The notes under the pieces are model-generated. The model was not told the origin of the DNA and searched no databases. It saw nothing but the letters and a program-made list of their open reading frames with translations. A DNA stretch of 63,415 nt, the filler included, from Stramenopiles sp. TOSAG23-2 (Eukaryota), in NCBI GenBank assembly GCA_900128395.1. It is 9 parts of 9 records of this genome, joined end to end, with 100 filler letters (N's around TTAATTAATTAA, not from the genome) between each part and the next. Parts side by side here need not be neighbours in the genome. Positions count along the whole stretch, not along the records: positions 11,476 to 22,814 come from LT649940.1; 8 more parts are not named here. One strand, written 5' to 3'. A program made the position numbers and the translations under genes. Of the stretch, positions 11,481 through 48,200 are shown in pieces. Within the stretch, counting starts at the first letter, position 1. The number at the start of each line of letters is the position of its first letter.

Positions 11481-14400
11481 ATGTGGCGTATTGTTGAAGT
11501 AGTAATGGCTGCGGAAGAACCAATACATGTCGAAGCATTGGATTATTTAATACAATGTAAAGCAAATGAACGTAAAGTAGCAGTTGCTAAATTATCATTA
11601 TTATTTCCAATACGCGATCGTAAATTACATGTCTTTCATAAAAGTGTGAAAGATTGGTTGGTGGATTTGGGGCGTAAAGAAGAGATATGTTATGTGAAAT
11701 ACAAAAAGGTGCATAAATTGTTGGGAAAACGATGTAAAGAGATTTTAGAAGAGGTAAATGGAATAGAGGATCAGGATGATGCAGAAGATATGTTGGAAGC
11801 ATCAGTATATTCATTGAAACATTGTGTAACACATTTATGTAAAGGTGGTATGGTGAAAGTTGCACGTGATTTAATGTTTCAATTTGAATATTTATTGGAA
11901 CGAGCAAAATTAGGACCGGAACATATGTTGGTGAAGGATTGTTTGCGAATTGTTAGTAGTGGTGGGGAGGGTATTAGGAAGGATCGTGCGTTTCATTTGT
12001 TGTATAGTGCTTTACGATTGTCACAGAGTGGATTGAGAACGAGTCCATTGCAAATTGCTGGCCAATTGTATGGTAGATTAATGGGTTATGGGAGGGGGAA
12101 AGTTGGAGGTACTGGTGGGGGAGATGGTGGTGATGGCCAAGGAGGTAGTAATGAAGGAAAGAAGACACATGTTAAAGATATTGATGAATTGTTGCAAAAA
12201 GTTAAAGCATGGAAAGGACCAAAAGGTGGTAAAGGATGGTGGTGTCCAAAACAACAAACATATGAACCAGCTGGTGGTAAATGTTTACATACACTTGTTG
12301 GGCATAAGGGTGGTGTGAATTGTAGTGCATTTAGTAAAGATGGTACAAAGATCGTATCTGGATCGCAAGATAATACAATACGTGTATGGAATGTTGATAC
12401 TGGTGAATGTATATTAACATTGAAAAGTCATACAGGTGAAGTCAACTCAGTTGTATTTAATCATGATGGTACAAAGATTGTATCTGGATCGGATGATAAT
12501 ACAATACGTGTATGGAATGTTGATACTGGTGAATGTATATTAACATTGAAAGGTCATACAAGTTATGTCACATCAGTTGGATTTAATCATGATGGTACAA
12601 AGATTGTATCTGGATCGTATGATCAAACAATACGTGTATGGAATGTTGATACTGTTGAATGTATATTAACATTGAAAAGTCATACAGGTGGTGTCACATC
12701 AGTTGGATTTAATCATGATGGTACAAAGATCGTATCTGGATCGAATGATAATACAATACGTGTATGGAATGTTGATACTGGTGAATGTATATTAACATTG
12801 AAAGGTCATACAGGTGAAGTCAACTCAGTTGTATTTAATCATGATGGTACAAAGATTGTATCTGGATCGAATGATAAAACAATACGTGTATGGAATGTTG
12901 ATACTGGTGAATGTATATTAACATTGAAAGGTCATACAAAGGATGTCACATCAGTTGGATTTAATCATGATGGTACAAAGATCGTATCTGGATCGTATGA
13001 TGAAACAATACGTGTATGGAATGTTGATACTGGTGAATGTATATTAACATTGAAAGGTCATACATGGGGGGTCAACTCAGTTGCATTTAGTAAAGATGGT
13101 ACAAAGATTGTATCTGGATCGAATGATAAAACAATACGTGTATGGAATGTTGATACTGGTGAATGTGTGTTGACATTGAAAGGTCATACAGGTAGTGTCA
13201 ACTCAGTTGGATTTAATCATGATGGTACAAAGATTGTATCTGGATCGTCTGATAATACAATACGTGTATGGAATGTTGATACTGGTGAATGTATATTAAC
13301 ATTGAAAGGTCATACAGATTATGTCAACTCAGTTGGATTTAATCATGATGGTACAAAGATTGTATCTGGATCGGATGATAATACAATACGTGTATGGAAT
13401 GTTGATACTGGTGAATGTATATTAACATTGAAAGGTCATACACGTGATGTCATATCAGTTGGATTTAATCATGATGGTACAAAGATTGTATCTGGATCGT
13501 GGGATAATACAATACGTGTATGGAATGTTGATACTGGTGAATGTATATTAACATTGAAAGGTCATACAAAGGATGTCACATCAGTTGGATTTAATCATGA
13601 TGGTACAAAGATTGTATCTGGATCGAAGGATGAAACAATACGTGTATGGAATGTTGATACTGGTGAATGTATATTAACATTGAAAGGTCATACAGGTGAT
13701 GTCTACTCAGTTGGATTTAATCATGATGGTACAAAGATTGTATCTGGATCGGATGATAGAACAATACGTGTATGGAATGTTGATACTGGTGAATGTATAT
13801 TAACATTGAAAGGTCATACAAGTGATGTCACATCAGTTGTATTTAATCATGATGGTACAAAGATTGTATCTGGATCGATGGATGAAACAATACGTGTATG
13901 GAATGTTGATACTGGTGAATGTATATTAACATTGAAAGGTCATACACGTCATGTCACATCAGTTGTATTTAATCATGATGGTACAAAGATTGTATCTGGA
14001 TCGATGGATGAAACAATACGTGTATGGAATGTTGATACTGGTGAATGTATATTAACATTGAAAGGTCATACAGGTGAAGTCAACTCAGTTGTATTTAATC
14101 ATGATGGTACAAAGATTGTATCTGGATCGAAGGATGAAACAATACGTGTATGGAATGTTGATACTGGTGAATGTATATTAACATTGAAAGGTCATACACA
14201 TCATGTCACATCAGTTTTATTTAATCATGATGGTACAAAGATTGTATCTGGATCGAAGGATGAAACAATACGTGTATGGAATGTTGATACTGGTGAATGT
14301 ATATTAACATTGAAAGGTCATACACATCATGTCAAATCTAGTCTGCGTCGTCAGCCTCTTTCGACTCTTTCGAAAGAAAGATTCTATGTCACATCAGTTG

Positions 14401-15092
14401 GATTTAATCATGATGGTACAAAGATTGTATCTGGATCGTCTGATAATACAATACGTGTATGGAATGTTGATACTGGTGAATGTATATTAACATTGAAAGG
14501 TCATACAGGTGAAGTCAACTCAGTTGTATTTAATCATGATGGTACAAAGATTGTATCTGGATCGAAGGATGAAACAATACGTGTATGGAATGTTGATACT
14601 GGTGAATGTATATTAACATTGAAAGGTCATACAGGTTGGGTCACATCAGTTGGATTTAATCATGATGGTACAAAGATTGTATCTGGATCGGGTGATAAAA
14701 CAATACGTGTATGGAATGTTGATACTGGTGAATGTATATTAACATTGAAAGGTCATACAAAGGATGTCACATCAGTTGGATTTAATCATGATGGTACAAA
14801 GATTGTATCTGGATCGAAGGATGAAACAATACGTGTATGGAATGTTGATACTGGTGAATGTATATTCACTGGCAATCAATTAGAAGATACATTACGAAAT
14901 GAATTTAATAGAACATTACAAGTAGCACCATTAAAAGAACATTTTAATTACGATACAAAATCGATCATTGGTATGTCAGGTGAAGGTCAAATTACCAATC
15001 CAGAAATGTATATTGGTAAAAAACGTGGAGAAAAATTAGTATGTGTAATAAGAGATGAACACCGTGTACATATAATGGAACATTGTTGTTGA
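11481..15092 (+). CDS. NLR-like STAND (NACHT/NWD-type) WD40-repeat protein, 5'-partial
   Basis: Winged-helix/helical region typical of NWD proteins (VFHKSVKDWL...YSLKHCVTHL...FEYLLER) then 20 WD40 repeats; NTPase domain inferred beyond the contig edge. Confidence 0.85.
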   Translation: MWRIVEVVMAAEEPIHVEALDYLIQCKANERKVAVAKLSLLFPIRDRKLHVFHKSVKDWLVDLGRKEEICYVKYKKVHKLLGKRCKEILEEVNGIEDQDDAEDMLEASVYSLKHCVTHLCKGGMVKVARDLMFQFEYLLERAKLGPEHMLVKDCLRIVSSGGEGIRKDRAFHLLYSALRLSQSGLRTSPLQIAGQLYGRLMGYGRGKVGGTGGGDGGDGQGGSNEGKKTHVKDIDELLQKVKAWKGPKGGKGWWCPKQQTYEPAGGKCLHTLVGHKGGVNCSAFSKDGTKIVSGSQDNTIRVWNVDTGECILTLKSHTGEVNSVVFNHDGTKIVSGSDDNTIRVWNVDTGECILTLKGHTSYVTSVGFNHDGTKIVSGSYDQTIRVWNVDTVECILTLKSHTGGVTSVGFNHDGTKIVSGSNDNTIRVWNVDTGECILTLKGHTGEVNSVVFNHDGTKIVSGSNDKTIRVWNVDTGECILTLKGHTKDVTSVGFNHDGTKIVSGSYDETIRVWNVDTGECILTLKGHTWGVNSVAFSKDGTKIVSGSNDKTIRVWNVDTGECVLTLKGHTGSVNSVGFNHDGTKIVSGSSDNTIRVWNVDTGECILTLKGHTDYVNSVGFNHDGTKIVSGSDDNTIRVWNVDTGECILTLKGHTRDVISVGFNHDGTKIVSGSWDNTIRVWNVDTGECILTLKGHTKDVTSVGFNHDGTKIVSGSKDETIRVWNVDTGECILTLKGHTGDVYSVGFNHDGTKIVSGSDDRTIRVWNVDTGECILTLKGHTSDVTSVVFNHDGTKIVSGSMDETIRVWNVDTGECILTLKGHTRHVTSVVFNHDGTKIVSGSMDETIRVWNVDTGECILTLKGHTGEVNSVVFNHDGTKIVSGSKDETIRVWNVDTGECILTLKGHTHHVTSVLFNHDGTKIVSGSKDETIRVWNVDTGECILTLKGHTHHVKSSLRRQPLSTLSKERFYVTSVGFNHDGTKIVSGSSDNTIRVWNVDTGECILTLKGHTGEVNSVVFNHDGTKIVSGSKDETIRVWNVDTGECILTLKGHTGWVTSVGFNHDGTKIVSGSGDKTIRVWNVDTGECILTLKGHTKDVTSVGFNHDGTKIVSGSKDETIRVWNVDTGECIFTGNQLEDTLRNEFNRTLQVAPLKEHFNYDTKSIIGMSGEGQITNPEMYIGKKRGEKLVCVIRDEHRVHIMEHCC
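12280..14870 (+). repeat. Coding tandem array of 20 x 126-bp WD40 units
   Basis: Near-identical nucleotide units; unit 17 carries a 57-bp insertion. Confidence 0.97.
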
Positions 15093-15099
15093 AAAACAA

Positions 15100-15375
15100 T
15101 TTTGTAAAATCTATCTCTACATCAGTAGCACATAAGAAATAGAACACAAATAAAATAGTTGGAGCGTATTACAATATTTGTTTTTACCGATTCTTAGCTT
15201 TTATAAAAAGAATGTTTTTTTTTTATTAATTGGTGGTTTTGTAAAATCTATCTCTACATCAGTAGCACATAAGAAATAGAACACAAATAAAATAGTTGGA
15301 GCGTATTACAATATTTGTTTTTACCGATTCTTAGCTTTTATAAAAAGAATGTTTTTTTTTTATTAATTGGTGGTG
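15100..15375. repeat. Two-copy 137-bp tandem duplication just after the WD40 gene stop
   Basis: Direct repeat ttttgtaaaatctatctc...ttaattggtggt. Confidence 0.9.
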
Positions 15376-16162: not shown

Positions 16163-18553
16163 CTATGAATTAAAGGTCTTAATTTTTTTATTTTTACTTG
16201 CAACTTCAAATTTAAATTTGTCATCTCCACGATGATTAAGATTGTTATTGATGTCCATTCCACCTATCAATGTTGGAATCTTATCATTTTTTATCCTTCT
16301 TTGTTCATGATTTATATTTGCAAGTTTAGATTCAAATTTGCCATCTCCACGATGGTTAAGACTATTATTGATGTCCTCCATTCCACCCTTTAAACGCAAT
16401 ACTACTTGCAGCGTTGATTCTTTTTTAATATGACAGTTACCAACTGTATTTGCGTCGTTTAAATCTTTTCCGCCAAATATTAACCGTTGCGCACTTGGTG
16501 GTATGCCAGTTTTATCTTGAATCAAATGTTTCAAGTCAAAGATTGTATTGCATGCAATAATGCTGTCCAACACAATGATTTCGCCATTTAATGTTTTAAC
16601 AAAAATTTGAAATGCATTGTTATGACTCCTATTTTCACAATACCCAACATCGTATTTATGGCTCTTTTGGAGTTTTTTATTGCCTTGCTTTTGAAAACTC
16701 ATATCTAATCGTAACACTAACGTTGATCTGTTTTGAATATTATACGTTGAGGTTGGTTTATCATCCTGTAACATTCTACCAGAAAACTTTAAACCGTGTT
16801 GTTGTTTCAACGGAATATCTGCTATGTCTTCAATCATCTTCTTGACTTCTTTAATTGTGGTAAAGTGTGTAACATTTCCTAATGTAATCCTTTTATTACT
16901 AGGTATTATCATTACAACAATCGAAAATGTAAATGTATTATTGCATAAACCCAACAATACATTGACTTTATGTATCGTTGCATTTATCCTTCCATTAACT
17001 TCACTTTTGTCTTTAGAAAGCTGTGATTTTTCATCATTGGATGGTGCATGTTCTAAATTATATAAATTGATAATTTCTTTTCTATAATCCTTTAATTTAT
17101 ATTTTCGCTCTAACAGTTTCTCTTTTATGTTGTCTGGGGGTGTAATAGTGATATGGTAATTTGCTTCTTTTGAAAAAACACGACCTATAAACATCTTAGG
17201 TGCTCTTACACCAACTCGTCGTACTGTAATTGCAAATGAAGAATTATGGTTTGATTTACTGCGCGTATATTCATGATACAATGGTTTTACCCCATTTAAC
17301 ATTTCTCTATCATAATCACGCCGTTCATAAATAACAAAACATACGGCAACGATATGTGAATTTCCATTGGGAAATCTGAATTCTTTTCTCTCTAATGCTT
17401 CTTCATAAATTAAATGATAGTTTTTTGGCAACGTCTCATTTTTAGATTTTCGTTGCCCATATTTTTGCGGCACAATAAATGCTATAACATCAGCATTTAA
17501 TTTTACCGTTTGACTAAAAAACGCTTCAATTAGTTTAAATGGTGGGTTTCCAATGAAAATAATACGTTTCCTTTCTTCCTTATTCATATTTTGAAAATGT
17601 TTATATTTTGAAAGGTCCCATTTTAAAAAATCTTGTTTTTCAATGTATGGTAATTTTGGATCAATGTCCATTGGTATGACATTGGCTTGATTAATACTTT
17701 TACATTGAAGCATACGATCAGAAAATGATCCATTTCCTGCACTTGGTTCAATAACAATATCCGTACTTTGAAATCCATTTATTACTGTTTCTATAATATT
17801 AAAATACGATATTGCATCTTTTTCATCTGTGTAATATTGATCTTTTTCTTTGTAGCTTTTCATTTTCAACATATCGTCTTTTGAAATACTAGACTTGTTC
17901 GCTACCGTTTCTCTGCGTTTTTTTTTGCGTTTTTTTGCACCACCCTTCAGTCTTAACATTACTTCGAGTTCTACACCTGGTTTAAGCTTACATTCAAAGA
18001 TCGTTTTTACATTATTTAATTCTTTCCCATTGTATTTTAAACGTTGGTCAGTCGATGAAATACCTATTTTATTTTCAACTTTTTGCTTTAATTCAAAAAT
18101 TAAATCGATATATGTTACCATTAAAGTAAGCTGCTTGCCACATAATGTTTTCAACGAAATTTGAAAGTTTTCTTGAAAATAATCATTGGCATAATAATCA
18201 ATAAAATCAAAATAATATGCACTTCCACAATTTAATTCACCCGCACCACTGTCATTCATAGTATGCATTTGTCCATGGCAAATATCACCTGGATATGAAA
18301 TGGATGTAGGGTTTGCTGTTGTTTTACGATCAACCATAACAAGAAGTGGTTCTTTGACTTTGTTTCCTACGTCACCCATTGTTGACATTGTTTGTTTTGC
18401 TCTTGTTTCTTCTTCTTTTTTTTTTGCTTTTCTAATAGCGTCTTCAACCATTTTATCATCCTCTCTGTCCCACTTTAGAAAATGTTGACTCCCATTTTGA
18501 CGTTTTGGCGGTTGCTTACTTGTTTCTTTTTTTCTGCCACTGTTATTCTTCAA
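16163..18553 (-). CDS. Fusion of three ubiquitin-like domains with a phage/NCLDV-type N6-adenine DNA methyltransferase
   Basis: Ubl1 aa130-205 ending LRLKGG; MTase motifs [39 protein letters not shown]; Ubl2 without GG; Ubl3 ending LRLKGG. Start uncertain (first in-frame ATG at 18451; frame open ~60 codons upstream of 18553). Confidence 0.85.
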
Positions 18554-20528
18554 TGCAATTGTAACAGTATTGTTGCAATGGATGTATCTAAATCCACCGT
18601 TGGGTGTCTGTATTAAGCAGCATTTAGCAATAGCTTGAAACGAAACCGAATTCGCTTGCGGTGCACAACCATTTTTAACTACAAAACTGTATGTGTTTTT
18701 TGGTGATAAATCTAAGTCATCATTATTATTGTATTATTAATGGTGTTAGTTGAATGTTTTGTTGTTTATATATATATATATATATATCGATGTATGAATT
18801 AGGAACATTTTCAATCGATGTAATATCGAATCATTTTGTCGTTGGTTCTATACGTATGTAGCGTCTGCGCGGACATCTATATCTACATCTATGATATATT
18901 TCTCTATTTTTATACAAATTTTAAATTTTTCAATTTTCATTTTTTTTTTCTAAATTTTTTTTCTATTTTACATTCTATACATTATTCTTTTGATATTTTG
19001 AGCTTATTATAATAAATAGGCTTGTAAGGGACCTTTTCAATCGATGTAACATTAAATCATTTTGATCTCATCGATGCGCGCACCTATACATCTATCATCT
19101 ATATATCTACATTTCTATGAATTTTTATTCAATTTTTAATTTTTTTTGTGTTGGATGATATTTCGTTAAGTATACTAAATAATTGTACTAAAATCATATA
19201 TATGCCTATATAAATACTATTTATTTCTCGTTTTTTGCTCCAAAATGTTGTTATCAGAGACGCATAGAATTGTGTTGGTGATTTGTGTTGTTTTTCTAAT
19301 CGTAAAACTATAAATCATATTTACTTCTTCCATGTGTTAAGAGGCAGAATAATTAATGTATACATACGTAGAACCATAAAATCAGTATACACGATAGATG
19401 AATCGACATTGACGGTAATATTGGTATTTTATTTTCATAAAGTATACATAGAAACTTTCGATGTATGTGTGAATTATCGCAAAGGTGTAAATGTGATAGA
19501 TATATAAGCCTATTTATATGTTATTTTGGTTACTTACCAAATGCTTCTTTTGATTTTGTTGCATTAATATTAAGTTTATTCATATTTTAATAAATATATG
19601 TATATAATTGAATAATAAGTTTGTTTATTTATTGATAAAGGTATCGTCGTTGTTTGAAATAGTAAATCTTTTTTGTTATTTTGTATTTGTTTGTATATAC
19701 TTCTGTTTGTTTAGCTATATATCTTTTGTATTCTATTGTATTTATCTATGTCGATATATAATTTTTAAAAATATATAGTGTTATTCCATGTTATTTATTT
19801 GTAATTTTGTATGTTGATGTATTGAAATAGTGAAAAAGGTTGAAAATATTAAGAGGTATTTAGTACTGTGTACCTGTTAAATTTGTTAAAAGGACTAAAA
19901 AAATGTCTCAATGAAATGATACAAGGCGTACATTTTAAAGGAAATCAGTTCTATTTCCATGCTATTTCTACAAAACACCTTAATCACCTCAATGAAAAAG
20001 AACAAAAACAAAAAGTAAGGAATTGCTATGCTATCCCCATACTATTCCAGTTAATGGACAATATTTCCCATTGAAATTTATGTGTACAGTAAATTGGATA
20101 AATAGAAATAGCAGAAAATGGATGATAGAATATTAATAGGTGCATAAAATGGATAATAGAAATATAATAGAAACTTCTTCGGAAACAATAGCGAATACAA
20201 ACAACAGGGTTTGAAAAAGTCCAAAACGTAAGATCATAATCTAAGTGCAATTTTAAGTATAATTTTCCCGTCTTTGATAGCTCTTACATTTTCGTTTTCT
20301 TGAGTTTGATGAAGATAGCAATAAGGAAGGTAATAGTATACAAAAAAGCCTAATTTAGTACAAAGTCTTCCTGTCTGAAAAAGAAAACGTAAGAACAAAA
20401 TAAAATAAAATCACCGCAAAAAGTACAGTATTACCATAAGGACAAGCGTAATTAGAGTTAGCTATTCTCGCATCGTAAGATATAGAAATCATTATACTAT
20501 TTTGCCTTTATTTAGTATAGTTTACTAC

Positions 20529-21108
20529 TCCATGTCCTAGTTGTATCATTGAAATTATTGTGAAAAAAATGGACAAATTGATAGATCGCGTTTACGTTTT
20601 TGTTGCTCCTCGTGACTCGTGACTCTACAGTAACTCGATTCTCTCGATGACAACACAACAACCAACAATCTAAATCTAGAATAAAGAAAAATGATGTGCT
20701 GCTGATGCTGATGATCTCTTCCATGTCCTAGTTGTATCATTGAAATTATTGTGAAAAAAATGGACAAATTGATAGATCGCGTTTACGTTTTTGTTGCTCC
20801 TCGTGACTCGTGACTCTACAGTAACTCGATTCTCTCGATGACAACACAACAACCAACAATCTAAATCTAGAATAAAGAAAAATGATGTGCTGCTGATGCT
20901 GATGATCTCTGCATGAGCCTCAGCTTACATTGTGAAAAAAATGGACAAATTGATAGATCGCGTTTACGTTTTTGTTGCTCCTCGTGACTCGTGACTCTAC
21001 AGTAACTCGATTCTCTCGATGACAACACAACAACCAACAATCTAAATCTAGAATATAGAAAAATGATGTGCTGCTGATGCTGATGATCTCTGCATGAGCC
21101 TCAGCTTA
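20529..21108. repeat. Three-copy tandem repeat, 181-191-bp unit
   Basis: attgtgaaaaaaatggacaaattgatagatcgcg... at 20557, 20748 and 20929. Confidence 0.92.
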
Positions 21109-21362: not shown

Positions 21363-22814
21363 ATGTTTGATGGTGATGACAACAATAATAATCTATTCGA
21401 TCATCATGGTTATGACAATCAAACCCAAAAACAGGAACCGGAGGAGTATATATTAAAGATACAAATTACAAAGATTACTCGTGCACAACTATGCTCACTG
21501 TCTCGTGATGAAAGTAATGGTAACGGAGGGAATGAGTTTGCTTTACGTGGAAATCTAGGAAGAGGTGATTATCAGATGCATGGTATATTGAGTGACTTGA
21601 ATAATAATATGCAACATGGAACAATATATTGCATTACAAATAATAAACCGCCGTACCCCCTTTCCTTACATATTGACACCTTATTACCATTTTGTACTCG
21701 TAACGATCACAAAAATGGCAAAAAGAGAAACACAAAAAGGTTTTATTTTCAGAGTCAATTCGAAGAGGATAAACCTATAAGCTTCCAGATATACGATTTT
21801 AATGACATACCCTTATCAAATCATAAATTTCAAACCTTAATTGTATATAAAGCTGAACGCTTTCAAGAATTAGGTACTAATTTAACAATCAACAACAACG
21901 GTATAGTTTCATTCCCAAATGCAAATTTAAACATAAGTAGTAGCAACATATCACAGAAATTTGATACAATACATGTAAATAATGCATATATTGCCCAAGC
22001 TATTGTTGATCAATTACAAGTATTATCTGATTCTGAATTGAAAATAATACAGACAGATACTCCATTTCCAGATGACGTTTTAGAGCAAGTATTCGGCTTA
22101 AACTTGCATATTTACAAATGGATTAGTAATGGTAATTTGGATGCTGGTTATATAGCAGAAGATTTATTGGAAATAGGTACAAACTTACAGATTCCATTAA
22201 TACACTATGAAAATCCAAGCATAAAAGTAACTCGTGAAAATATGAACGATCGTGTAATCAAAGATGAAAGTGGAATTCCGATTTTAGATAAAGATGGACA
22301 AAAACGGATTAAAAAAGGAAGACGTTTAGTTGTTAATTCCAATGCCATACGTGCATTATTAATTCGAAGTATTCAAAACCTATTCAGTAATCAAAAAGAG
22401 TTGTCCACAAAAATGAATGAACATTTGGAAGGATTAAAAATATTTTATTATGATATTTATGAAAAACATATCAAATTAGAGCAAAATATTGATGGCTTAA
22501 ATTGTCGAGTTGATGAACTAGAGCAACAACAACAAAATCAACAGAATAAGGGAGAATTAACAATAAAAAAAACGGTAGAAACGAGGTCGGGGAAACAGAT
22601 AGTCGAGTATTCAGGTGATGCAAAAAAAGTATTGCTTGCAAGGCAAGAAAGCTTCGATCGTAATAACAATAACAATAATAACAGCAACAACATTACAATA
22701 AATACCATGGGTGTCAGCGCATCATCTAAGAAAGAAAATAAGAAGAAAGAAAACAATACATTTATTATAGTAACAATTGTGATTAATAATGAAGCAATTG
22801 TTGCAATAGATTTA
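21363..22814 (+). CDS. Protein with peptidase S74 / intramolecular-chaperone autocleavage domain and coiled coil (MYRF-like or tail-fibre-like), 3'-partial
   Basis: LSDSELK (Ser-x4-Lys), LHIYKW, AGYIAEDL, LVVNSNAIRALLIRSIQNL, RVDELEQ follow the ICA consensus order. Confidence 0.7.
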
Positions 22815-23453
22815 NNNNNNNNNNNNNNNNNNNNNNNNNNNNNNNNNNNNNNNNNNNNTTAATTAATTAANNNNNNNNNNNNNNNNNNNNNNNNNNNNNN
22901 NNNNNNNNNNNNNNGTGCTATGATAGTGCTAATATCGGATATTTATATTGCCACATATCCATTAGTTTTGTAATTTCGGTCAACTGTCAATAGCTTTTTG
23001 CTCAAAATATGGTATATCAGTGCTGTGTAATGCTAATAGCTATTGCCAGTAATTTATCTGGGACTTTTCCATGCTTGGATCTTAATCTTCTGCTTAGCTG
23101 CTGAGCTGCTGAGCTGCAAAATTAAAATGTGATCACTGGAGATGATGCATGTAATAAATACTACAGGTATTATTCACTACTACTATTATTATTATTATCA
23201 ATTTGAATAAATTATTATAAAATATATCAATCAATATAGAATATATAATATTCTGAACAATGCGGAGAGAGAGAGATTAAATACATATACATATATATAT
23301 ATAAGAAAGATATATAGATATATATAGATATATATTATATTTGTGTTTCACTGTATATATATATATATATTGTAATTTATATAATATTAGTAGTTTTTGT
23401 GCTATAAATATACATAGCAACATTTATCCACCACTCCTTCTTCATTTTTAAAG

Positions 23454-36139: not shown

Positions 36140-39100
36140 TTACAGTACCATCTTACTTAAGTCAAAAATATCAAGACCAAACTTTTCAATCTCTTCCACA
36201 AGTACTTCTGGCTTTCCTTCTGATGCTTTTCCAAGACCAAGGTACACATTTAAAAAGTAATTTACTAATTGTAAATCTTCTATATCATCTTGGGTCTCTG
36301 GGGGATTGCTGGTAGTTTTTAGATGATCAAAACACATACTTAATATATGCTCTTCTTTTGCCAATATATAGGCCAAACATGCACCAACTCGCCTTGAAAA
36401 TTTAAACCTTTCCGTCTTTTTCTTTTCAATCATCTCAGCATCAGACTGAGGTTTTAAGCCCTCAATAGTTGCAATCGAGGGTATGATAAATGGCAAACCA
36501 TATTTAATGCCTATTCCAGCACCAAATTGAAACAAAGTTGTATCATCAGCCTGTACACCCAAAACATCCCTTCTTTGGCAGTTTAATGTTTGTGATGTCA
36601 ATGCATCATAATATGCTATAGGATCTTGCCACATATTTGCTTGATATCCGGTACCTAACGTTTTGTTAGAGTTCACAGATGTACTTGATACACCTTTTGT
36701 ATTATCACTCATTCCCCCGTTACTCTCTTCCTTAACATCTTTCTCCGTGGCGTCATCAACTTTCTCTGAAAGATCATCGACTTTCTTTGCAGTGTCATCG
36801 ACTTTTTCTTCCTCATCTTCTTCTTCCAAATCATCACTTCCAAGAACTGGTAAGGGGCCCACACCATTTTTCAAACTTCGTTTCCATTCATCGTCTAATA
36901 ATTTCAATATATTAACCCATCCATCTAAACTGCCATTATCATTCTTTTTCTCATACGCCTTGAATGCCTTATTTACAATTTTAAACCACTTTTCATGACC
37001 ACCCTTAGCTTTATCAATACTAGTTTCACCAGTATTGATATCTTTGAAAGAGAATGCATCTTTCAACCCGCATGCACGTTCCATGTCAGCAATTTTTAGC
37101 TTGTTTCCGCTCGACGATGCAATAAAATACTTACATGCATGTTTGACTTGATCAGCATTTGTCAAACGTCCACTTATAATGTACGTCTTGATTTCTTGAT
37201 TTTGTTGTGTCTGAAGCTGATTATATTCATTTCTATCAACCACTTTTAGCAATTTCCTTTTGTCTGGATATTTGACGTAATCTTTAGCCAACGCAAAATC
37301 TCGATTCTTCCATAGATTGTTTTTTACACTCATCATATTAAGCCGAAATTTACGATAGTTAACGATTCCTTTCTGCATCTCAACTTGGGCCATTTTGTAG
37401 TCTAGCTCATTATAATATTGTACGCCAGTAGTAACATTAACTAAATCAATTCGATGTTTTGGTAATAAATTTATGCCAAGATAAATTTCGGCAAATACAA
37501 TTGGAAAAAATTCATGTCCCGGCCCCTTAATGGTCGAGCCTTTGCTAGTGCTACTGTACTCTCTTACATTTTCTTTTAATCGTTGAGTTAATAGCTTTTT
37601 CAATTTTATTTTCCTTGTAGTGTCAAGGGTTTTTTTGGATGGTTTCTTTTCTTGTACATCTTTCACCTGAGCTTTCAATGCTTTTGGAGTTGAAGGATTT
37701 CCTTCAAAACGCAACCTCTGGAGCCTCCAATTAGCAACTAGCATCATTGCAACCGACAAAGCACCTTCATCTTTAATTTGACACTGAGAGATGTCCAAAT
37801 CGGTTAATCCACCATGTTTAGAGCTAAATCGGTTATGTCGGTGACAAAGCGCCCTTGCAAGAACATGAGCCCCCCTGTTTCCAAGTGCCACACTTCGCAG
37901 CGATAAGCGTTTCATGGTTGATCTACCAGCAACACTGTGTATTAAGGCATTTAAACCATCCATTCGACCAAAACCCTTTGTAACTAATAAGTCTGCAATA
38001 TCATTTTCATCCATGATTAAGCTTTCCAAGCGACAACTACGACTACGTGGTTGAACTTCAACAACAGAACCAGGACTAATATACGTGCCTGTAAGAGAAC
38101 GTATTCTATATCTTGTTTCTTTGGCTGGTACGTCTCATTATTATTACCCTCTATCAAATACTCATGTGGAACCCATTCTGACATTTCATCGTCCGTCGTC
38201 ATTTGAATTTTCATGGAGCTTTCGTTACGACATGTGCCACGAAATTCTATATATCCTCCAGGCATCTCCTTAGATTCATCACCTTCAAATAACCCTAAGG
38301 GTACCAATTTGGACGCATAAGCGGGGTTTCGTTTGTATTTATTATATTCGGTTTTATCATAATATAGATATTCAGCTTTTGCTTGAGTTGGATCGTTCGC
38401 AATAACTACATCATCAATACGCTTAGTTATTATCTTCAAATACATTACCTGCGCCATTCCTTGCTCATTATCCCTTAAGGAACCATCGTCATTCTTTAGT
38501 ATATAAGCTTGTCGGCTGTGGCGTATGCGCACACGCAAATTGTGCTTTACCATGTAAGAGGAAGGCAAGGAAACACAGCTTCTCTCAACTATAGGATATA
38601 TCTGTTCATTAGTAGTGTCGTAAATCTGCTCCCCCCATTTTTCACGCCATTTTGCATCTGTTTTTGTCCATATGGGCATGACTTGCACATTTCTCCCATT
38701 ATCAAGCTCCCGTATTACTTCACAACGAATGTATCCTGGGCGCTGCCGTCTTACAAACACAGTATCACCAGGAGAGTTACCTTCTCTCGGTTTCAATACA
38801 ATTAAATCGTATGGTATACCAGCCATATAGGTTTTATCCTTCAGCTGAACATCTAGTGATTCGTTATAATCTACAAGGTTATAGAATGTTAGTATAGTTG
38901 CGGTTAAAAATAGCAGTAGTGTTAACAATGTCAGAATATGGTAAAGGAATGTGGGAAATTATTTTATAATACCTACCTTTAATAATTCCAATTTGATATT
39001 GTGCAATGTTCTTCGCTAACATTAAGGCACCTAAACCTGTAATGGCATTTCCTCTTAAATCTAAATGCTTCATTGACGGTTGGTTAGATAACACTCGCGA

Positions 39101-42100
39101 TAGTTTACTGACACCTTTATCACTTAAATTATTAGCGCCAAGATCCAGAGACGTTACCGTTTGATTTGTAAACAAGCCTTTTGCCAGAGCATCGATACCA
39201 TTAATACCTAGACCACACGCTCTTAAACTTAACGTAGACAACAGTGGTTGCGGTTTCAGAAATACAGACATAACCGGAGCTTTGAGGGTAGAATACTTCT
39301 TGTAAAAAGCTTTTACTTGTTCTTCAACTAGTGCATCTTTGCTCTCTTCCACACTTTCGTCCGTATCAAAAGCTTCTGTACCCGAATTAATAGAAATACC
39401 AGTAAGCAAAACTTGTAGAGCTTTTGCACCATGTACACCTATATCCGTATAATTCAAATTTAAATGAGTAATCAAAGAGCGACATTGCAAGAATAGCTCC
39501 ACCATGGATGACTTATCAAATTCCTTCGCTTCAGCTGTTTTGACAGCTTCGACATCTTCTGCTGGCACGGTAATCGTCTTCTTGATATCCTTGCCGTCCT
39601 CTATCGCCCGTAAAGTTTTCGCTGTATCACGTCGGACGTCATAGGTACCATCATTTACTAACATGACCGTTCCATTTTCTTTACGGTGTACCCAGCCTTT
39701 CATCCCCTCTTTTAAATGGGAAATAGCATATGGTGTAACTAATGATAAACTTCGTTCCCATACTTTTGTTGCGCCTTCTAACACATTTATATTTTTCAAC
39801 GTTGTCATTCTTCTATTAGGTGGCAATTGTCTAAGAAGCCCCACTACCCTGCGCAATGCACAGAATGCTACAAAGAACATGTGCTCTCGTGTTGAATTTT
39901 TATACTCACTATAAAAATTAGAATTCATCTTCTCAAACTCTGTTGTTTCACTATCCGTCAGCAAGAACGAATAATTGTTGTTCCATTGCCACAATTGATC
40001 TTCTACATAAATATTATAACCACTTCTAAAGTCACCCGATCCATGCATACGCAAAAACGTTTGCAACGTATTATTGAAGTTATTGTCTTTAACGACTTTC
40101 TCCTCGTTCCCGTAAACCGCTTTCTGAATAAAACAAATCATGGGAACAAGATCACCATTTGCATGCTTCCATTTGGTATTAACAAATCGACCATTTTTAT
40201 CGGGATTATTCACAAATTTTTTAATATTCATTAAATTATCTTGACTGACAGCCTCCTCTTTCCCCGTTTCCATGTTGTAGAACAAACACTTATGCTTCCC
40301 GAAGTTCCGAGCTTTCGACATACTTTTAATGCTATTTTTGATACTATTCGTATCCATATCATCTACACTCGTAATCAAACATTCCGCACCTTCTAAAATG
40401 AACCTGGTAAGATTTTCGGCACGCCCAACGTCATCGCTAACAGTAGAAGTGTCCTTACTCATGAAGATTTCCCATACTTGAAACTCTAGCATTGGCCTTC
40501 CGCCTTCAGATTCAACTCGTTTATACTTTTTGAACCAGGAGTCACCACCGCCATTACCACCAGCGCTTTTTTTTCTACCTTCCTCCACGTCATAATCTAC
40601 CATATCACTGTATAACGAAGGCATATTACCAATATAAGGTCCTTGCAAGGTTATATTTGAGCTTGCATCAGACCACGTTTCTTGTGTTGGAGGTGGCACT
40701 TCAGTCCATGCTGATCTCTGCCTTTGTGGCTCTGATCGTAAACGATCCTCTTTTTCCTCTTTTAACATATAATATTTTCCGTTATGATATACAATATCAT
40801 GTTGGTTGTACTCTCGCGACTCAATATCCGTGTTATAATTACCTTTAAATGACAACGTACTTTCATACATTTGATTTTTGAATTGAGAAAGAAATTCTTG
40901 TGAAATCCCTCTGCCTTCGCCCTCTTCTGCCGCCATTTCTGGGTCTATTCCAAACGGATGTACAATTACAATAATTGGTATATTACTCAATTTTTGTTTG
41001 TCATAATCAGAAAGATTTCTGTTTCTAGCAAACACCCTATCGTTCTTGAAAAATTCACATGCATTATATCTATGATTTGAGTCCGAATTAGACTCATTTC
41101 TTAAATTCATGTTGTCAAATTCTATCCTATAATGGTATAGCGGAATCGGTTTTGTAACAGTTGCCTCTGGCATTTTATTTTGATTTTCGTCCTCATCCTC
41201 TAAATTCAAATCAAGGAGCTCATCCATAGATGGTATTTCTATTTTTGGAATTTCAAGAGGTGGCATCATCTCCTCACCCAGTTGAAACGTAAAATCTAAA
41301 AGCTCATTCGTATCACTTGCAAAGGCACCGTCCGGTTTATCATATGGGATAACGTTTAAAATAACGCAAGTTCGCAAATGGCCATCATTCCCACCAACTT
41401 TTATTGCAGCTCTGGCACCTGGTTGTGGCAAACATATTGACATAGGATCACAATTTGTAAGTATTTCACCTGTGCTCAATAACTCGACGTCAAAGTCATA
41501 TTTTATGGTTTCCATTTTGCTTACTCGTTTTGCCTTCAACATGTTCGTTCTTATAGAGTTTTTTGTATCGCTTTTGGATTTGATGCTTTCATTGATTTGT
41601 ATCTTTTTCACGCTATATGACATTGGTAGTTTACACCACTTATTTTGTAACGCTAAAGGAACGCGGATACCACTTACAGTACACTCTTTCATTTCCTGTC
41701 CAGCATACTTTCTACACCACCTTGTCCCGTACGTAAAACTAGTGGTTAACACTTCATCACCTGGAGCTAGCACGTAAATTTGATGTATATTTGTGCGTCC
41801 ATCAATATCTAAGGTAAAACCTTTATTTTTTTTGTGTGTCTCTTGGTCGTTGTTTTCTCGCTCATCCAAATGTCGACATTCAACAGTGTATATATCTGTT
41901 TCTTTGTCATACCCAATAACATGGCCGTAAAAATAATGATATGGAAATTTTGAATCAGCTGTAAAACGGCTCCGTACATGAACCATCGCCTTATTTGTAG
42001 CCTTTAAAGTATTTGGATCAATTCCAGGATTTCTTGTTGAGTCAGCCTTAACATCACCTTTAAAAATAATAGACAATAAGTTTTGTTAGTAAGAAAGTAT

Positions 42101-46974: not shown

Positions 46975-47892
46975 TTATGCAACCATTTTTGCTTTTAAGG
47001 CAGATTGGTGTTCATAACCCTTTAATTTAATCTCTGAAAAATTTACATCCCTTAATCCATCTTTCTTTCTATGGATGGCGATGGTAGGTAATCCGTATGG
47101 TATACGTTGTGTTTGTATGGTAGCCACACCAACATGGTTCTCATAAATATGTGCATCTCCTATAACAATACGGACCGACCCTACTTGAAGATCACATTCA
47201 TGTGCTATCAAATGGACCAGAAGGGCGGTGGATGCTATATTGAAGGGTAGACCTAAAAAGACATCTGCTGACCGTTGGTACATTTGACAGAATAATTTCC
47301 CGGATTGGACATAGAATTGATACGACACATGGCAAGGTGGTAAACACATCTCTTCTTCGTCCATTGGATTCCATGCCGATAAATAGATTCTCCTTGAATG
47401 TGGATTGGTCTTTATCATATGAATAATCTTTTCAATTTGATCAATCCCTTGTCCAGTATAATCCTCTTTGCAGGAGATGTAGTCTGCTCCAAAATGTCTC
47501 CATTGGAACCCGTAGACAGGACCAGCATCAAAATTTCTATCCTTTGTATTGCCATCCCATATATGATTGTTGTGTTCATGGAGTTCCGTCACATCAGTGG
47601 ATCCTCTGAGAAACCACGCCAATTCGGTGACAATACCTTTAAAAAACATCTTTTTGGTGGTCAATAAGGGGAATCCTTTGTTTCGCAATGGTTTCACATC
47701 CTGTATTTTTTTCACAGCAATATGATCTTTTAACACATCGACCATGATGCGGGTCATCTCCAAACTGAGCATGTTGAAAAAATCTTGGAACTCCACATAC
47801 GATAAAGAGTTTGACTGTTGTAATTTTTCGTGTTGTTTCGTAAAATTATTACACTTGTCACAACTGTTTCGTAAAATTATTACACTTGTCAC
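46975..47892 (-). CDS. thyA: Thymidylate synthase (ThyA type), stand-alone, with non-homologous N-terminus
   Basis: GFPLLTTKK, GPVYGFQWRHFG, SAWNP, LPPCH, YQRSADVFLGLPFN, GDAHIY; DRTG motif and DHFR domain absent. Confidence 0.85.
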   Translation of the reverse strand: MTSVIILRNSCDKCNNFTKQHEKLQQSNSLSYVEFQDFFNMLSLEMTRIMVDVLKDHIAVKKIQDVKPLRNKGFPLLTTKKMFFKGIVTELAWFLRGSTDVTELHEHNNHIWDGNTKDRNFDAGPVYGFQWRHFGADYISCKEDYTGQGIDQIEKIIHMIKTNPHSRRIYLSAWNPMDEEEMCLPPCHVSYQFYVQSGKLFCQMYQRSADVFLGLPFNIASTALLVHLIAHECDLQVGSVRIVIGDAHIYENHVGVATIQTQRIPYGLPTIAIHRKKDGLRDVNFSEIKLKGYEHQSALKAKMVA

Positions 47893-47956
47893 AACTATAT
47901 CTTCTTTGGTATTTGTACTTTTCCGTAGTGTTATGATAGGAAGTAAAGAAAAGTTG

Positions 47957-48200
47957 TTTTAGAAATGTGTTAATAAACATACTAAATATACAACGGCGTA
48001 TGCTATATCAAGCAGGTGTTGTTCACAGGGATATAAATAAATAATGTTGGTGGTTGGTTTTATTTAAATTTGAATTTGAATCGGTTTAGAGGTTGATATG
48101 TGTGAGTATGTGTGTAAAGTTTATACTTAACTCTACAACACTACTACTTTTGTGTTCCTATCATATTAGAAAACGGGGAAATATTTATACTTGATAGTAT
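47957..48200 (+). repeat. Dispersed repeat copy, homologous to 56750-57003 (inverted) and 57061-57114 (direct)
   Basis: Shared ttttagaaatgtgt...aaatataca...agcagg...gatataaataaat...tttgaatttga...gatatgtgtgagtatgtgt. Confidence 0.75.

What the first reader, a model, noticed from the sequence alone, without database searches (positions are those of the whole stretch)
16163..18553. Ubiquitin-punctuated polyprotein carrying a virus-type N6-adenine DNA methyltransferase
Seen: Ubl1 (76 aa, 18166-17939) ends LRLKGG and is followed at once by AKKRKKKRR. Next come an MTase with motif I (EPSAGNGSF), catalytic NPPF (17548-17537) and an RRVGV tail, then Ubl2 (no GG) and Ubl3 (16612-16382, LRLKGG). Known: GG|AKKRKKK is the ubiquitin-ribosomal protein S27a junction that deubiquitinases cleave, and this MTase motif set is typical of phage and giant-virus MTases, not METTL3/AMT1. 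Inference: host DUBs would release an MTase that starts with an NLS and still carries Ubl domains. This could be a captured viral methylase repurposed as a processed nuclear effector for antiviral, selfish or epigenetic roles. I do not recognise this architecture from described proteins.
Basis: partly seen in the sequence, partly recalled or inferred. Interest (0 to 1): 0.85.

Follow-up and report, generated by a model that had tools for sequence, protein, structure and literature searches.

The report
Ubiquitin-flanked adenine methyltransferase fusion gene
A marine protist gene joins the ubiquitin leader of a ribosomal-protein gene to an adenine methyltransferase of a kind common in giant viruses, phages and bacteria, followed by two more ubiquitin-like domains, an arrangement not found elsewhere whose processing and target remain untested.

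Summary
One open frame (16163-18553, minus strand) encodes an N-terminal extension, Ubl1 ending [15 protein letters not shown], a Rossmann adenine-N6 methyltransferase (MTase) with motifs X, I and NPPF, Ubl2 without GG, Ubl3 ending LRLKGG, and a 72-aa tail.

- **Junction:** it matches only ubiquitin-eS31 (S27a) fusions in the PDB.
- **Family:** no local Pfam model hits the MTase. Its relatives carry PF26055 (Mtase_EDM2) and are about 270-aa proteins of giant-virus MAGs, phages and bacteria, 25-37% identical.
- **Origin:** unresolved. The window protein sits on a very long branch between a viral clade and a prokaryote grade.
- **Substrate:** unresolved. The nearest solved structures are rRNA adenine MTases (KsgA, Erm, METTL5), but relatives are fused to true DNA MTase domains.
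- **Host:** eukaryotic, since a canonical intron lies in the window.
- **Support:** an independent metagenome contig spans the Ubl1-MTase junction. RNA-library contigs from three studies, one polyA, match parts of the frame.
- **Architecture:** 0 of 61 long relatives carry ubiquitin.

Cleavage by deubiquitinases (DUBs), nuclear import and catalysis are inferred, not shown. I read it as a new variant of known kinds, of moderate interest.

The parts
16163..18553 (-). Whole open reading frame, 796 codons from the first TTG plus the stop at 16163-16165. The frame stays open upstream to 18733. The first ATG is at 18451-18449, so the 5' end of the gene model is uncertain.
18167..18451 (-). N-terminal extension, about 95 aa from the first ATG, with no recognisable domain
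   Evidence: no Pfam family there; an RNA-library contig lies on 18247-18396
17939..18166 (-). Ubl1: divergent ubiquitin domain, 76 aa, ending LRLKGG. By my count of the printed alignment it matches ubiquitin at about 30 of 75 positions. Ubiquitin positions L8 and I44 are C and K here.
17912..17938 (-). Basic stretch AKKRKKKRR directly after GG. It is the ubiquitin-eS31 (S27a) junction and a putative NLS.
   Evidence: 18 of 18 PDB matches are Ub-eS31 fusions, with [13 protein letters not shown] aligned. NLS function in yeast eS31: PMC5027506.
16979..17842 (-). Adenine-N6-type Rossmann methyltransferase domain (P0001 residues about 238-525), related to PF26055 (Mtase_EDM2) proteins. Motif X DQYYT lies at 17842-17828, motif [10 protein letters not shown] at 17749-17723, motif IV GNPPF with NPPF at 17548-17537, and RRVGV at 17221-17207.
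16691..16927 (-). Ubl2: ubiquitin-like domain without a C-terminal GG (ends LRLDMS)
16382..16612 (-). Ubl3: the most ubiquitin-like domain, about 43 of 76 positions identical by my count. It keeps L8, I44, V70, K48 and K63 and ends LRLKGG, followed by M.
16166..16381 (-). C-terminal tail of 72 aa. It holds a 120-nt tandem duplication (16190-16256 and 16310-16376, 85% identical) that repeats a GG|M(E)DINN junction.

Best explanation
This is a real, expressed nuclear gene of a marine eukaryote, built as a mosaic. Its 5' part comes from a ubiquitin-eS31 (RPS27A-type) gene: the ubiquitin plus the first basic residues of eS31. The eS31 body has been replaced by an adenine-N6 nucleic-acid methyltransferase of the PF26055/EDM2-like family, which is otherwise found as a stand-alone protein of about 270 aa in giant viruses, phages and bacteria. 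Two ubiquitin-like domains and a short repeated tail follow.

Most likely mechanism (all steps inferred):
1. The precursor is cut by cellular ubiquitin C-terminal hydrolases after the LRLKGG of Ubl1, as Ub-eS31 is. This frees an enzyme that begins with the eS31-type basic NLS.
2. It is also cut after the LRLKGG of Ubl3, which removes the tail.
3. The product, NLS-MTase-Ubl2-Ubl3, enters the nucleus and methylates adenine N6 in nucleic acid. I slightly favour DNA over RNA, roughly 50:40, with about 10% for no activity.
4. Ubl2, and Ubl3 if it stays attached, serve as interaction modules.

Shown: the sequence architecture, the homologies, the junction identity, the eukaryotic context, an independent DNA contig across the Ubl1-MTase junction, and RNA-library contigs on parts of the frame.
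For: **Reality of the gene**
- The stop-free frame is 856 codons, against at most 181 in 20 shuffles.
- Codon usage correlates at r 0.91 with the pooled neighbouring genes, against 0.64-0.66 for its own off-frames.
- The stretch is held by 12 further DNA runs of marine or seawater metagenomes besides 2 possible source runs.
- A 1073-nt contig of an independent DNA run covers 17712-18754, across the Ubl1-MTase junction.
- Contigs of three RNA libraries from three studies, one polyA-selected, match 16331-16645, 16502-16769, 17183-17348, 17380-17539, 18049-18199 and 18247-18396 with 0-1 differences each.

**Eukaryotic host**
- A 106-nt GTAGGT...TACTAAC...TAG intron joins two ORFs in frame at 38976-38871.
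- Neighbouring genes look eukaryotic.
- The stretch is not in IMG/VR, although a search pattern fitted its own motif I.

**Ub-eS31 origin**
- The NLS function is taken from PMC5027506.

**Retained GG**
- Ubl1 is only about 40% identical to ubiquitin, yet it keeps LRLKGG, as Ubl3 does.

**MTase competence**
- 37 of 48 columns that are at least 85% conserved in 41 relatives are kept. These include motif X, motif I, the acidic DI.P and GNPPF.
- The AlphaFold model is confident: pLDDT 81.4, pTM 0.75.

**DNA leaning**
- Relatives are fused to DNA MTase domains: N6_N4_Mtase in P0265 and L094, Eco57I or N6_Mtase in P0283, L091, L092 and L119.
- Others are fused to Rho_N/SAP-like or C2H2 domains.
- In phage nieznany the gene lies between primase/helicase and DNA polymerase.
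- CamA and MmeI align over 230-250 residues at Z 12.1-12.5.
Against: **Transcript and processing**
- No RNA contig bridges a Ubl-MTase junction, so a single transcript is not shown. RNA libraries can also carry DNA.
- No cleavage, localisation or activity data exist.
- Ubl1 has C and K at ubiquitin positions L8 and I44. Many deubiquitinases contact these residues (recalled), so cutting there may be poor.

**MTase divergence**
- Its branch length is 1.8-1.9, against a median of 0.28-0.46.
- It has lost 11 of 48 conserved columns; relatives lose a median of 3 and at most 23.
- The losses include a 4-aa deletion right after NPPF, FQxW changed to FVIY, and most of the C-terminal NTVGPxSISK motif. 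The enzyme may therefore be inactive or retargeted.

**Substrate**
- The nearest solved relatives are RNA enzymes. By profile search: Ta1320 2e-6, METTL5 7e-6, ErmC' 2e-5, against M.TaqI 0.02. By VIA-align: KsgA and ErmC' at Z 15.8, against M.TaqI at 13.1.

**Possible frame breaks**
- Short metagenome fragments 83-89% identical (P0136, P0137, P0139, P0140) carry locally frame-shifted stretches, including over motif I in P0137.
- One RNA contig has an extra T in a T6 run at 17421-17426.
- These may be errors or broken alleles.

**Conservation**
- No orthologue with the same architecture was found, so neither conservation nor dN/dS could be measured.
Confidence: 0.5

Rival explanations
1. The enzyme is an RNA adenine-N6 methyltransferase acting on rRNA or mRNA, not a DNA methyltransferase. 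The architecture and processing are as above, but the substrate is RNA. The ribosomal-protein leader might even take it to the nucleolus or to pre-ribosomes.
For: - PDB profile hits are best for the METTL5 family and Erm.
- Foldseek and VIA-align rank KsgA, Erm, Dim1, PH1948 and METTL5 above DNA MTases.
- Weak sub-threshold RrnaAD matches occur in several relatives.
- JGI names some relatives 'predicted RNA methylase'.
- PF26055 is the EDM2 domain. Rice EDM2 is cited as an m6A writer (PMC9674322 and PMC10871907, passages).
Against: - Relatives are fused to DNA MTase domains in 6 proteins.
- The phage copy sits in a replication module and is annotated as a DNA MTase.
- The family is common in phages, giant viruses and sporadic bacterial loci, where DNA MTases are the rule (knowledge).
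- The Z difference is small (15.8 against 13.1-13.3), and the RNA enzymes are simply smaller.
Confidence: 0.35
2. The ubiquitin-like domains are permanent, uncut domains, as in Rad23-type or parkin-type UBL proteins. They mediate binding to the proteasome, to ubiquitin receptors or to chromatin. There is then no 'polyprotein'.
For: - Ubl2 has no GG.
- Ubl1 lacks the L8/I44 surface.
- All three domains begin with F at the position of ubiquitin's M1 and are 26-43% identical to each other, so they are old, diverged domains.
- Internal and C-terminal ubiquitin domains occur in other protist fusion proteins (PMC6332867, section 4).
Against: - Two of the three domains keep the full LRLKGG despite strong divergence.
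- One of them keeps the exact Ub-eS31 cleavage junction.
- Ubl3 keeps L8, I44, V70 and the tail. Linear GG-X bonds after a ubiquitin fold are normally cut unless X is proline (knowledge).
Confidence: 0.2
3. It is a decaying chimeric relic: a chance fusion of a ubiquitin gene copy and a horizontally acquired MTase that no longer has a function.
For: - A very long branch and 11 lost conserved columns.
- Frame-disturbed fragments in other samples, and an indel in one RNA contig.
- No orthologue was found elsewhere.
Against: - An 856-codon open frame in DNA of about 31% G+C, where shuffles give at most 181 codons.
- The catalytic and SAM motifs are intact.
- Codon usage is native-like.
- RNA-library contigs come from three studies.
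- The indels lie in a homopolymer or in short, low-depth contigs.
Confidence: 0.12
4. The gene belongs to a giant virus or to a recently integrated viral element, not to the host's own gene set. It would be a viral gene that exploits host deubiquitinases.
For: - 492 IMG/VR stretches encode relatives, and 31 of the 80 loci kept are named GVMAG.
- Giant-virus loci also encode ubiquitin: 2 of the first 165 loci held at that time (L001-L165).
- The AU test does not reject the window protein joining the viral clade, p 0.467.
Against: - A spliceosomal intron and eukaryote-type genes lie in the same window.
- Spacers beside the gene are 1-2.8 kb.
- No flanking inverted repeats or LTR-like repeats.
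- No viral hallmark family appears among the 20 large ORFs scanned.
- Codon usage matches the neighbours.
- The stretch is absent from IMG/VR.
- The recalled mimivirus promoter motif is not enriched, 14 against 14.6 expected.
Confidence: 0.07

Closest known systems
Ubiquitin-eS31 (RPS27A / yeast Ubi3) fusion precursor
   Same: A ubiquitin fold ending L-R-L-(R/K)-G-G, followed directly by AKKRKKK. In the known precursor this bond is cut by cellular hydrolases, and the basic extension is an NLS (PMC5027506).
   Different: The eS31 zinc-ribbon body is absent: no ribosomal family appears. An MTase takes its place. The ubiquitin is only about 40% identical to canonical ubiquitin, lacks L8 and I44, and carries an N-terminal extension.
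PF26055 Mtase_EDM2 family (the ELP domain of plant EDM2, and stand-alone viral and bacterial proteins)
   Same: It shares the motifs DxFYT, EPSAGNGxF, DIxP, GNPPF and RRVG. Relatives score up to E 1e-20 to 4e-25. The nearest Atlas clusters carry PF26055.
   Different: Identity is only 25-37%, and the branch is very long. There is a 4-aa deletion after NPPF and a degenerate C-terminal motif. The flanking domains are ubiquitin-like, not the PHD fingers described for EDM2 (PMC7529245). I could not compare it directly with plant EDM2.
Gamma-class DNA adenine MTases (M.TaqI, M.BseCI, Eco57I/MmeI-type, HsdM)
   Same: The motif order is X, I, IV, followed by a C-terminal beta-rich part. Structural matches reach Z 12-13.3. 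Relatives are fused to such domains.
   Different: No Pfam hit to N6_Mtase or Eco57I at E up to 10. The protein is much smaller, and no DNA activity is shown.
rRNA adenine MTases KsgA/Dim1, Erm and METTL5
   Same: These give the best structural matches (Z 14.9-15.8, 152-162 residues aligned) and the best profile matches. METTL5 also has NPPF (recalled).
   Different: Only the Rossmann core aligns, model residues about 27-213. No RrnaAD hit was found for the window protein. The family's occurrence in phages and its fusions point to DNA.
Diverse ubiquitin fusion genes of protists (Bigelowiella natans, Guillardia theta; Sibbald et al. 2019)
   Same: Ubiquitin occupies N-terminal, internal and C-terminal positions relative to unrelated partners, and the genes are expressed (PMC6332867, abstract and section 4).
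   Different: No methyltransferase appears among the partners listed in Tables 1 and 2. Here three diverged domains flank one enzyme.
Cellular ubiquitin inserts in cytopathic pestivirus polyproteins
   Same: A captured ubiquitin provides a host-hydrolase cleavage site in front of an enzyme domain.
   Different: That is an RNA-virus polyprotein with near-canonical ubiquitin. This is a cellular gene with diverged domains.

Membership tests
Ubiquitin family (PF00240) | Match to the family HMM above the gathering score | tested here: met
   145 bits against a cut-off of 25.4, in 3 stretches. Each domain aligns to PDB ubiquitin.
Ubiquitin family (PF00240) | C-terminal diglycine tail LRLRGG that allows processing and conjugation | tested here: met
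   Ubl1 and Ubl3 end LRLKGG. Ubl2 does not; it ends LRLDMS.
Ubiquitin family (PF00240) | Near-identity to canonical ubiquitin, with the L8/I44/V70 patch | tested here: not met
   Identity is about 40% (Ubl1), 46% over 65 columns (Ubl2) and 57% (Ubl3), by my count of the midlines. Ubl1 has C8 and K44. Ubl3 keeps L8, I44 and V70. These are ubiquitin-like domains, not ubiquitin.
Ubiquitin-eS31 (S27a) fusion | The GG|AKKRKKK junction | tested here: met
   18 of 18 PDB matches of the 34-aa junction peptide are Ub-eS31 chains. The E-values are weak (0.015-2.3) because the query is short. The 30 aa after GG found nothing when searched alone.
Ubiquitin-eS31 (S27a) fusion | The eS31 zinc-ribbon body after the basic extension | tested here: not met
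   No ribosomal protein family in the Pfam scan of the whole protein. The MTase begins about 30 aa after GG.
PF26055 Mtase_EDM2 | Match to the Pfam HMM above its gathering score | not testable with these tools
   The local Pfam copy appears to lack PF26055: proteins with a precomputed PF26055.1 hit gave none. Indirect support comes from many relatives carrying PF26055.1 and from 18 of 30 Atlas hits forming that family set, best score 0.97.
PF26055 Mtase_EDM2 | The family's conserved motifs | tested here: met
   37 of 48 columns that are at least 85% conserved are kept, including DxFYT, EPSAGNGxF, DIxP, GNPPF and RRVG. 11 are lost.
Amino-MTases with (D/N)PP(F/Y/W) | SAM-binding motif I and the catalytic NPPF in a Rossmann fold | tested here: met
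   See, and the fold matches.
Gamma-class DNA N6-adenine MTases (N6_Mtase, Eco57I) | HMM match | tested here: not met
   No Pfam or NCBIfam family at E up to 10. PHROG 799 'DNA methyltransferase' scores 1.6e-10 and PHROG 5172 (unknown function) 1.3e-23.
Gamma-class DNA N6-adenine MTases (N6_Mtase, Eco57I) | Methylation of adenine in DNA | not testable with these tools
   There are only contextual hints from fusions and phage gene order.
rRNA adenine dimethylases / Erm (PF00398) and METTL5 | HMM match and the RNA-binding C-terminal domain or partner | tested here: inconclusive
   The window protein has no RrnaAD hit. The family profile hits ErmC' at 2e-5 and METTL5 at 7e-6. Only the Rossmann core aligns structurally.
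MT-A70 (METTL3, AMT1) | HMM match | tested here: not met
   No Pfam family at E up to 10.

The most novel reading that the evidence does not exclude
After the tail is trimmed, the enzyme ends in a near-canonical ubiquitin (Ubl3) with a free LRLKGG, K48, K63 and the I44 patch. The cell's E1-E2-E3 cascade could then attach the whole methyltransferase covalently to target proteins such as histones or ribosomal proteins. That would make it an enzyme delivered and anchored by its own ubiquitin. The released N-extension-Ubl1 would be a second, orphan modifier.
Probability: 0.07. Interest if true: 0.85.

Novelty: new variant of a known kind. Interest (0 to 1): 0.5.

Why it matters
If the reading holds, three points follow.

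- A foreign-type nucleic-acid methyltransferase would have been domesticated by grafting it onto the ubiquitin plus NLS leader of a ribosomal-protein gene. That gives it a ready-made module for expression, processing and import.
- It would add an enzyme partner to the short list of natural ubiquitin fusions.
- It would give a tractable eukaryotic member of the little-studied PF26055/EDM2-like family, whose substrate (DNA 6mA or RNA m6A) is still debated.

It bears on how adenine methylation systems enter eukaryotes, but only one locus in one organism is known so far.

Tried and rejected
**Searches that found nothing useful**
- Own genome: none is held.
- Local Pfam and NCBIfam on the MTase part: no hit.
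- phmmer of the MTase part against the PDB: only a chance hit, E 0.84.
- Search for an orthologue or another Ubl-MTase fusion:
  - Near-length and longer-length searches gave 14 and 1 distant hits.
  - The representative library gave only short fragments 83-89% identical.
  - JGI metagenome contigs gave 5 distant loci.
  - None of the 61 long relatives scanned has ubiquitin.
- Cluster look-up of 10 relatives gave no names.
- Ubiquitin next to the MTase in viral loci: ubiquitin-like hits in L035 and L056 only, of the first 165 loci held, and not adjacent.
- The linker after GG searched alone against the PDB: no match.

**Viral-origin test**
- FastTree places the window protein on the prokaryote side. 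IQ-TREE leaves it unresolved. The AU test does not reject a viral placement. I therefore make no claim of a donor.

**Tests for a mobile or viral setting**
- Transposon or viral-island reading of the locus: there are no inverted repeats. Only local tandem repeats were found.
- Mimivirus-type promoter motif (recalled): not enriched.
- No Rfam family and no tRNA in the window.

**Read coverage and literature**
- No RNA or DNA contig of the four runs laid lies on 16774-17041, and no RNA contig lies upstream of 18516. The tool warns that holes prove nothing.
- The DAM-retrotransposon preprint (10.64898/2026.05.21.726589, abstract and section 5) concerns another MTase family.
- Literature searches for a ubiquitin-MTase fusion found nothing relevant.

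**Steps not carried out**
- A second structure job and a second Atlas search were not accepted, so no full-length model exists.
- Earlier findings were not open.

**Correction of my own reading**
- My first statement that the C-terminal family motif is deleted (35 of 48 columns kept) came from cutting the query at residue 501. With the longer query the motif is degenerate rather than absent, and 37 of 48 columns are kept.
Full report
**The observation**

The minus strand holds an ORF at 16163..18553, 796 aa from a TTG. The frame is open from stop to stop for 856 codons, 16166-18733. The first ATG is at 18451. The longest stop-free run in 20 shuffles of the window was 181 codons.

Pfam finds the ubiquitin family at E 5.7e-43 in three stretches. 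Against PDB ubiquitin:
- Ubl1 (18166-17939) scores 36.6 bits per unit and ends LRLKGG.
- Ubl3 (16612-16382) scores 67.4 bits and ends LRLKGG.
- Ubl2 (about 16927-16691) scores 27.5 bits and ends LRLDMS.

Ubl1 is followed at once by [22 protein letters not shown] (17548-17537) and RRVGV are present and are conserved family motifs.

**The ubiquitin parts**

A 34-aa peptide across the Ubl1 junction matches 18 PDB sequences. All of them are ubiquitin-eS31 (S27a) fusions, with [13 protein letters not shown] aligned to [13 protein letters not shown]. The E-values are weak (0.015-2.3) because the peptide is short. The 30 residues after GG find nothing on their own. No ribosomal family is present. So only the ubiquitin and the first seven to nine residues of eS31 survive.

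In yeast the eS31 N-terminal extension carries a functional NLS, and cleavage of the precursor may be co-translational (PMC5027506, abstract and passages of section 20).

By my count of the alignment midlines, identity to ubiquitin is about 40% for Ubl1, 46% over 65 columns for Ubl2 and 57% for Ubl3. Ubl1 and Ubl3 share 33 of 76 residues. All three domains start with F where ubiquitin has M1.
- Ubl3 keeps L8, I44, V70, K48 and K63.
- Ubl1 has C at position 8 and K at position 44.

The 72-aa tail contains a 120-nt tandem duplication that repeats a GG|M(E)DINN junction. It looks like the remains of a further unit.

**The methyltransferase**

Local Pfam and NCBIfam give nothing at E up to 10. PHROG 5172 (unknown function) scores 1.3e-23 and PHROG 799 (DNA methyltransferase) scores 1.6e-10.

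Relatives found:
- In the 5.8-billion-protein collection, 388 proteins of 162-518 aa match at E up to 1e-3. They are typically about 270 aa and 30-37% identical. Many have a precomputed PF26055.1 hit, and some are named 'predicted RNA methylase'.
- The representative library gives 1198 hits at E up to 1e-3.
- The Atlas names PF26055 as Mtase_EDM2 and puts the query next to such clusters, score 0.97, with 18 of 30 hits in that family set.

The local Pfam copy seems to lack this model, since proteins with the precomputed hit scored nothing. I could not compare the protein directly with plant EDM2.

The alignment shows the family pattern DxFYT ... [10 protein letters not shown] ... DIxP ... IGNPPFGRQSS ... 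VPCVFQIW ... RRVGxxAGK ... SHYFIK ... NTVGPxSISKxEL. The window protein keeps 37 of the 48 columns that are at least 85% conserved in 41 relatives. It loses 11, whereas relatives lose a median of 3 and at most 23. The losses are:
- a 4-residue deletion directly after NPPF;
- FQxW changed to FVIY;
- a G-to-P change in AGK;
- most of the C-terminal motif, which aligns only after a 13-aa insertion and keeps S, K and E.

An earlier count of 35 of 48 used a query cut too short.

An AlphaFold model of residues 206-501 is confident: pLDDT 81.4, pTM 0.75.

**Substrate**

The family profile hits Ta1320 (2e-6), METTL5 (7e-6), ErmC' (2e-5) and only then M.TaqI (0.02). Foldseek ranks KsgA, Erm and Dim1 first, at E about 1e-7 and TM 0.35-0.41. 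VIA-align gives:
- KsgA and ErmC' at Z 15.8;
- PH1948 at 15.0 and METTL5 at 14.9;
- DrdV at 13.3, M.TaqI at 13.1 and M.BseCI at 12.9;
- CamA at 12.5 over 230 residues and MmeI at 12.1 over 250 residues.

Reviews cite rice EDM2 as an mRNA m6A writer (PMC9674322, PMC10871907; passages). The Arabidopsis literature calls the domain 'N6-adenine methyltransferase-like' (PMC7529245, passage).

On the other side, relatives are fused to true DNA MTase domains:
- N6_N4_Mtase in P0265 and L094;
- Eco57I or N6_Mtase in P0283, L091, L092 and L119.

That includes 4 of the 11 long bacterial proteins scanned. Others carry Rho_N or C2H2 domains. In phage nieznany the homologue lies between primase/helicase and DNA polymerase and is annotated as a putative DNA N6-adenine MTase.

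I conclude that this is an adenine-N6 nucleic-acid MTase whose substrate is open. DNA is slightly favoured for the family. The window protein may have been retargeted.

**Origin**

Relatives are encoded by 492 of the 584 IMG/VR stretches that matched a search pattern. Of the 80 loci kept, 31 are named GVMAG (that this label means giant-virus MAGs is recalled). Relatives also occur in 212 phage records and in 135 of the 166 stretches that matched in prokaryote genomes. All are 24-37% identical.

In trees of 168 and 54 rows the window protein has an end branch of 1.8-1.9, against medians of 0.28 and 0.46.
- FastTree puts it in a mostly prokaryotic set.
- IQ-TREE leaves it at an unresolved fork between a viral clade and a prokaryote grade.
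- The AU test does not reject joining it to the viral clade: log-likelihood difference 0.01, p 0.467.

The 54-row tree used every third or fourth row of each group. A viral capture is therefore possible but not shown.

**Setting and reality**

The window is eukaryotic.
- On the minus strand a 106-nt intron (GTAGGT at 38976, a TACTAAC-like branch site, TAG ending at 38871) joins two ORFs in frame (own arithmetic).
- The neighbours include WD40, EF-hand, Myb, ankyrin, a transporter and thymidylate synthase.
- The spacers beside the gene are 1.07 and 2.8 kb.
- No flanking inverted or LTR-like repeats were found.
- Codon usage fits the neighbours at r 0.91, against 0.64-0.66 for off-frames, so this test is weak in AT-rich DNA.

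Of the 24 listed runs, 20 hold the stretch or part of it:
- 2 possible source runs;
- 12 further DNA runs of marine or seawater metagenomes, holding 0.45-0.86 of the words;
- 6 RNA runs, holding 0.10-0.21 of the words.

Laying four of these runs (contigs only) gave the following:
- a 1073-nt DNA contig lies on 17712-18754, across the Ubl1-MTase junction;
- RNA-library contigs from three studies, one polyA, lie on the N-terminal part, Ubl1, the MTase, the Ubl2-Ubl3 linker, and Ubl3 plus the tail;
- none of the RNA contigs bridges a Ubl-MTase junction;
- one RNA contig carries an extra T in a T6 run.

Fragments 83-89% identical from other samples contain locally shifted stretches. These may be errors or broken alleles.

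**Comparison and novelty**

Ubiquitin fusions with N-terminal, internal and C-terminal ubiquitin are known in protists (PMC6332867, abstract and section 4).

None of the 61 long relatives of the MTase that I scanned carries ubiquitin. Three literature searches found no such fusion. These searches cover only the held library.

I therefore rate the finding as a new variant of known kinds: a ubiquitin-fusion precursor and a PF26055-like MTase.

- Shown: the architecture, the homologies, the junction, the host type, one independent DNA junction, and partial matches in RNA libraries.
- Inferred: cleavage, nuclear import, catalysis, substrate and biological role.

Noticed in passing
window 11481-15092 (+): A 1203-aa protein with more than 20 nearly identical 42-aa WD40 repeats (GHT..V.SV.FNHDGTKIVSGS.D.TIRVWNVDTGECILTLK). 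One repeat is interrupted by an unrelated stretch (HHVKSSLRRQPLSTLSKERF). This looks like a very homogeneous repeat array.
   Followed up: no
window 38871-38976 (-): A canonical spliceosomal intron of 106 nt (GTAGGT ... TACTAAC ... TAG) joins ORF 38879..42076 to ORF 38017..38928 in frame. A third ORF, 36140..38029, abuts them without an obvious intron. Together they may form one very large LRR-containing gene.
   Followed up: partly
window 20529-21091 and 15100-15373: Tandem repeats: three copies of 191 nt (100%, 100% and 88% identical) upstream of the gene, and two identical copies of 137 nt just after the WD40 gene.
   Followed up: no
window 46975-47958 (-): The thymidylate synthase ORF matches the Pfam profile only from position 37. 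The conserved N-terminal part was not seen in any ORF upstream, and no DHFR domain was seen. There may be an upstream exon, or the gene may be truncated.
   Followed up: partly
window 21363-22862 (+): The divergently oriented neighbour has a weak, sub-threshold match to Peptidase_S74 (chaperone of endosialidase): E 3.9e-4, 21.1 bits against a cut-off of 22.
   Followed up: no
P0283 (1133 aa) and P0002 (588 aa), metagenome proteins: These proteins string two or three MTase domains together. P0283 has an Eco57I-like domain plus two EDM2-type domains, and P0002 has two EDM2-type domains, the first with GKPPF. They look like multi-specificity methylases.
   Followed up: partly
window 18554-18733 (-): The frame of the gene stays open for 60 codons upstream of the TTG and 94 codons upstream of the first ATG. 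An ACTAAC...TTAG stretch lies near 18750-18712. An upstream exon is possible but none was found.
   Followed up: partly
L087, L089, L093 (one 'Bacteroidetes' MAG, three short contigs): Three separate short contigs of one bacterial MAG each encode a family member, and one of them groups inside the viral clade. Some 'prokaryote' rows may be mis-binned viral contigs.
   Followed up: no
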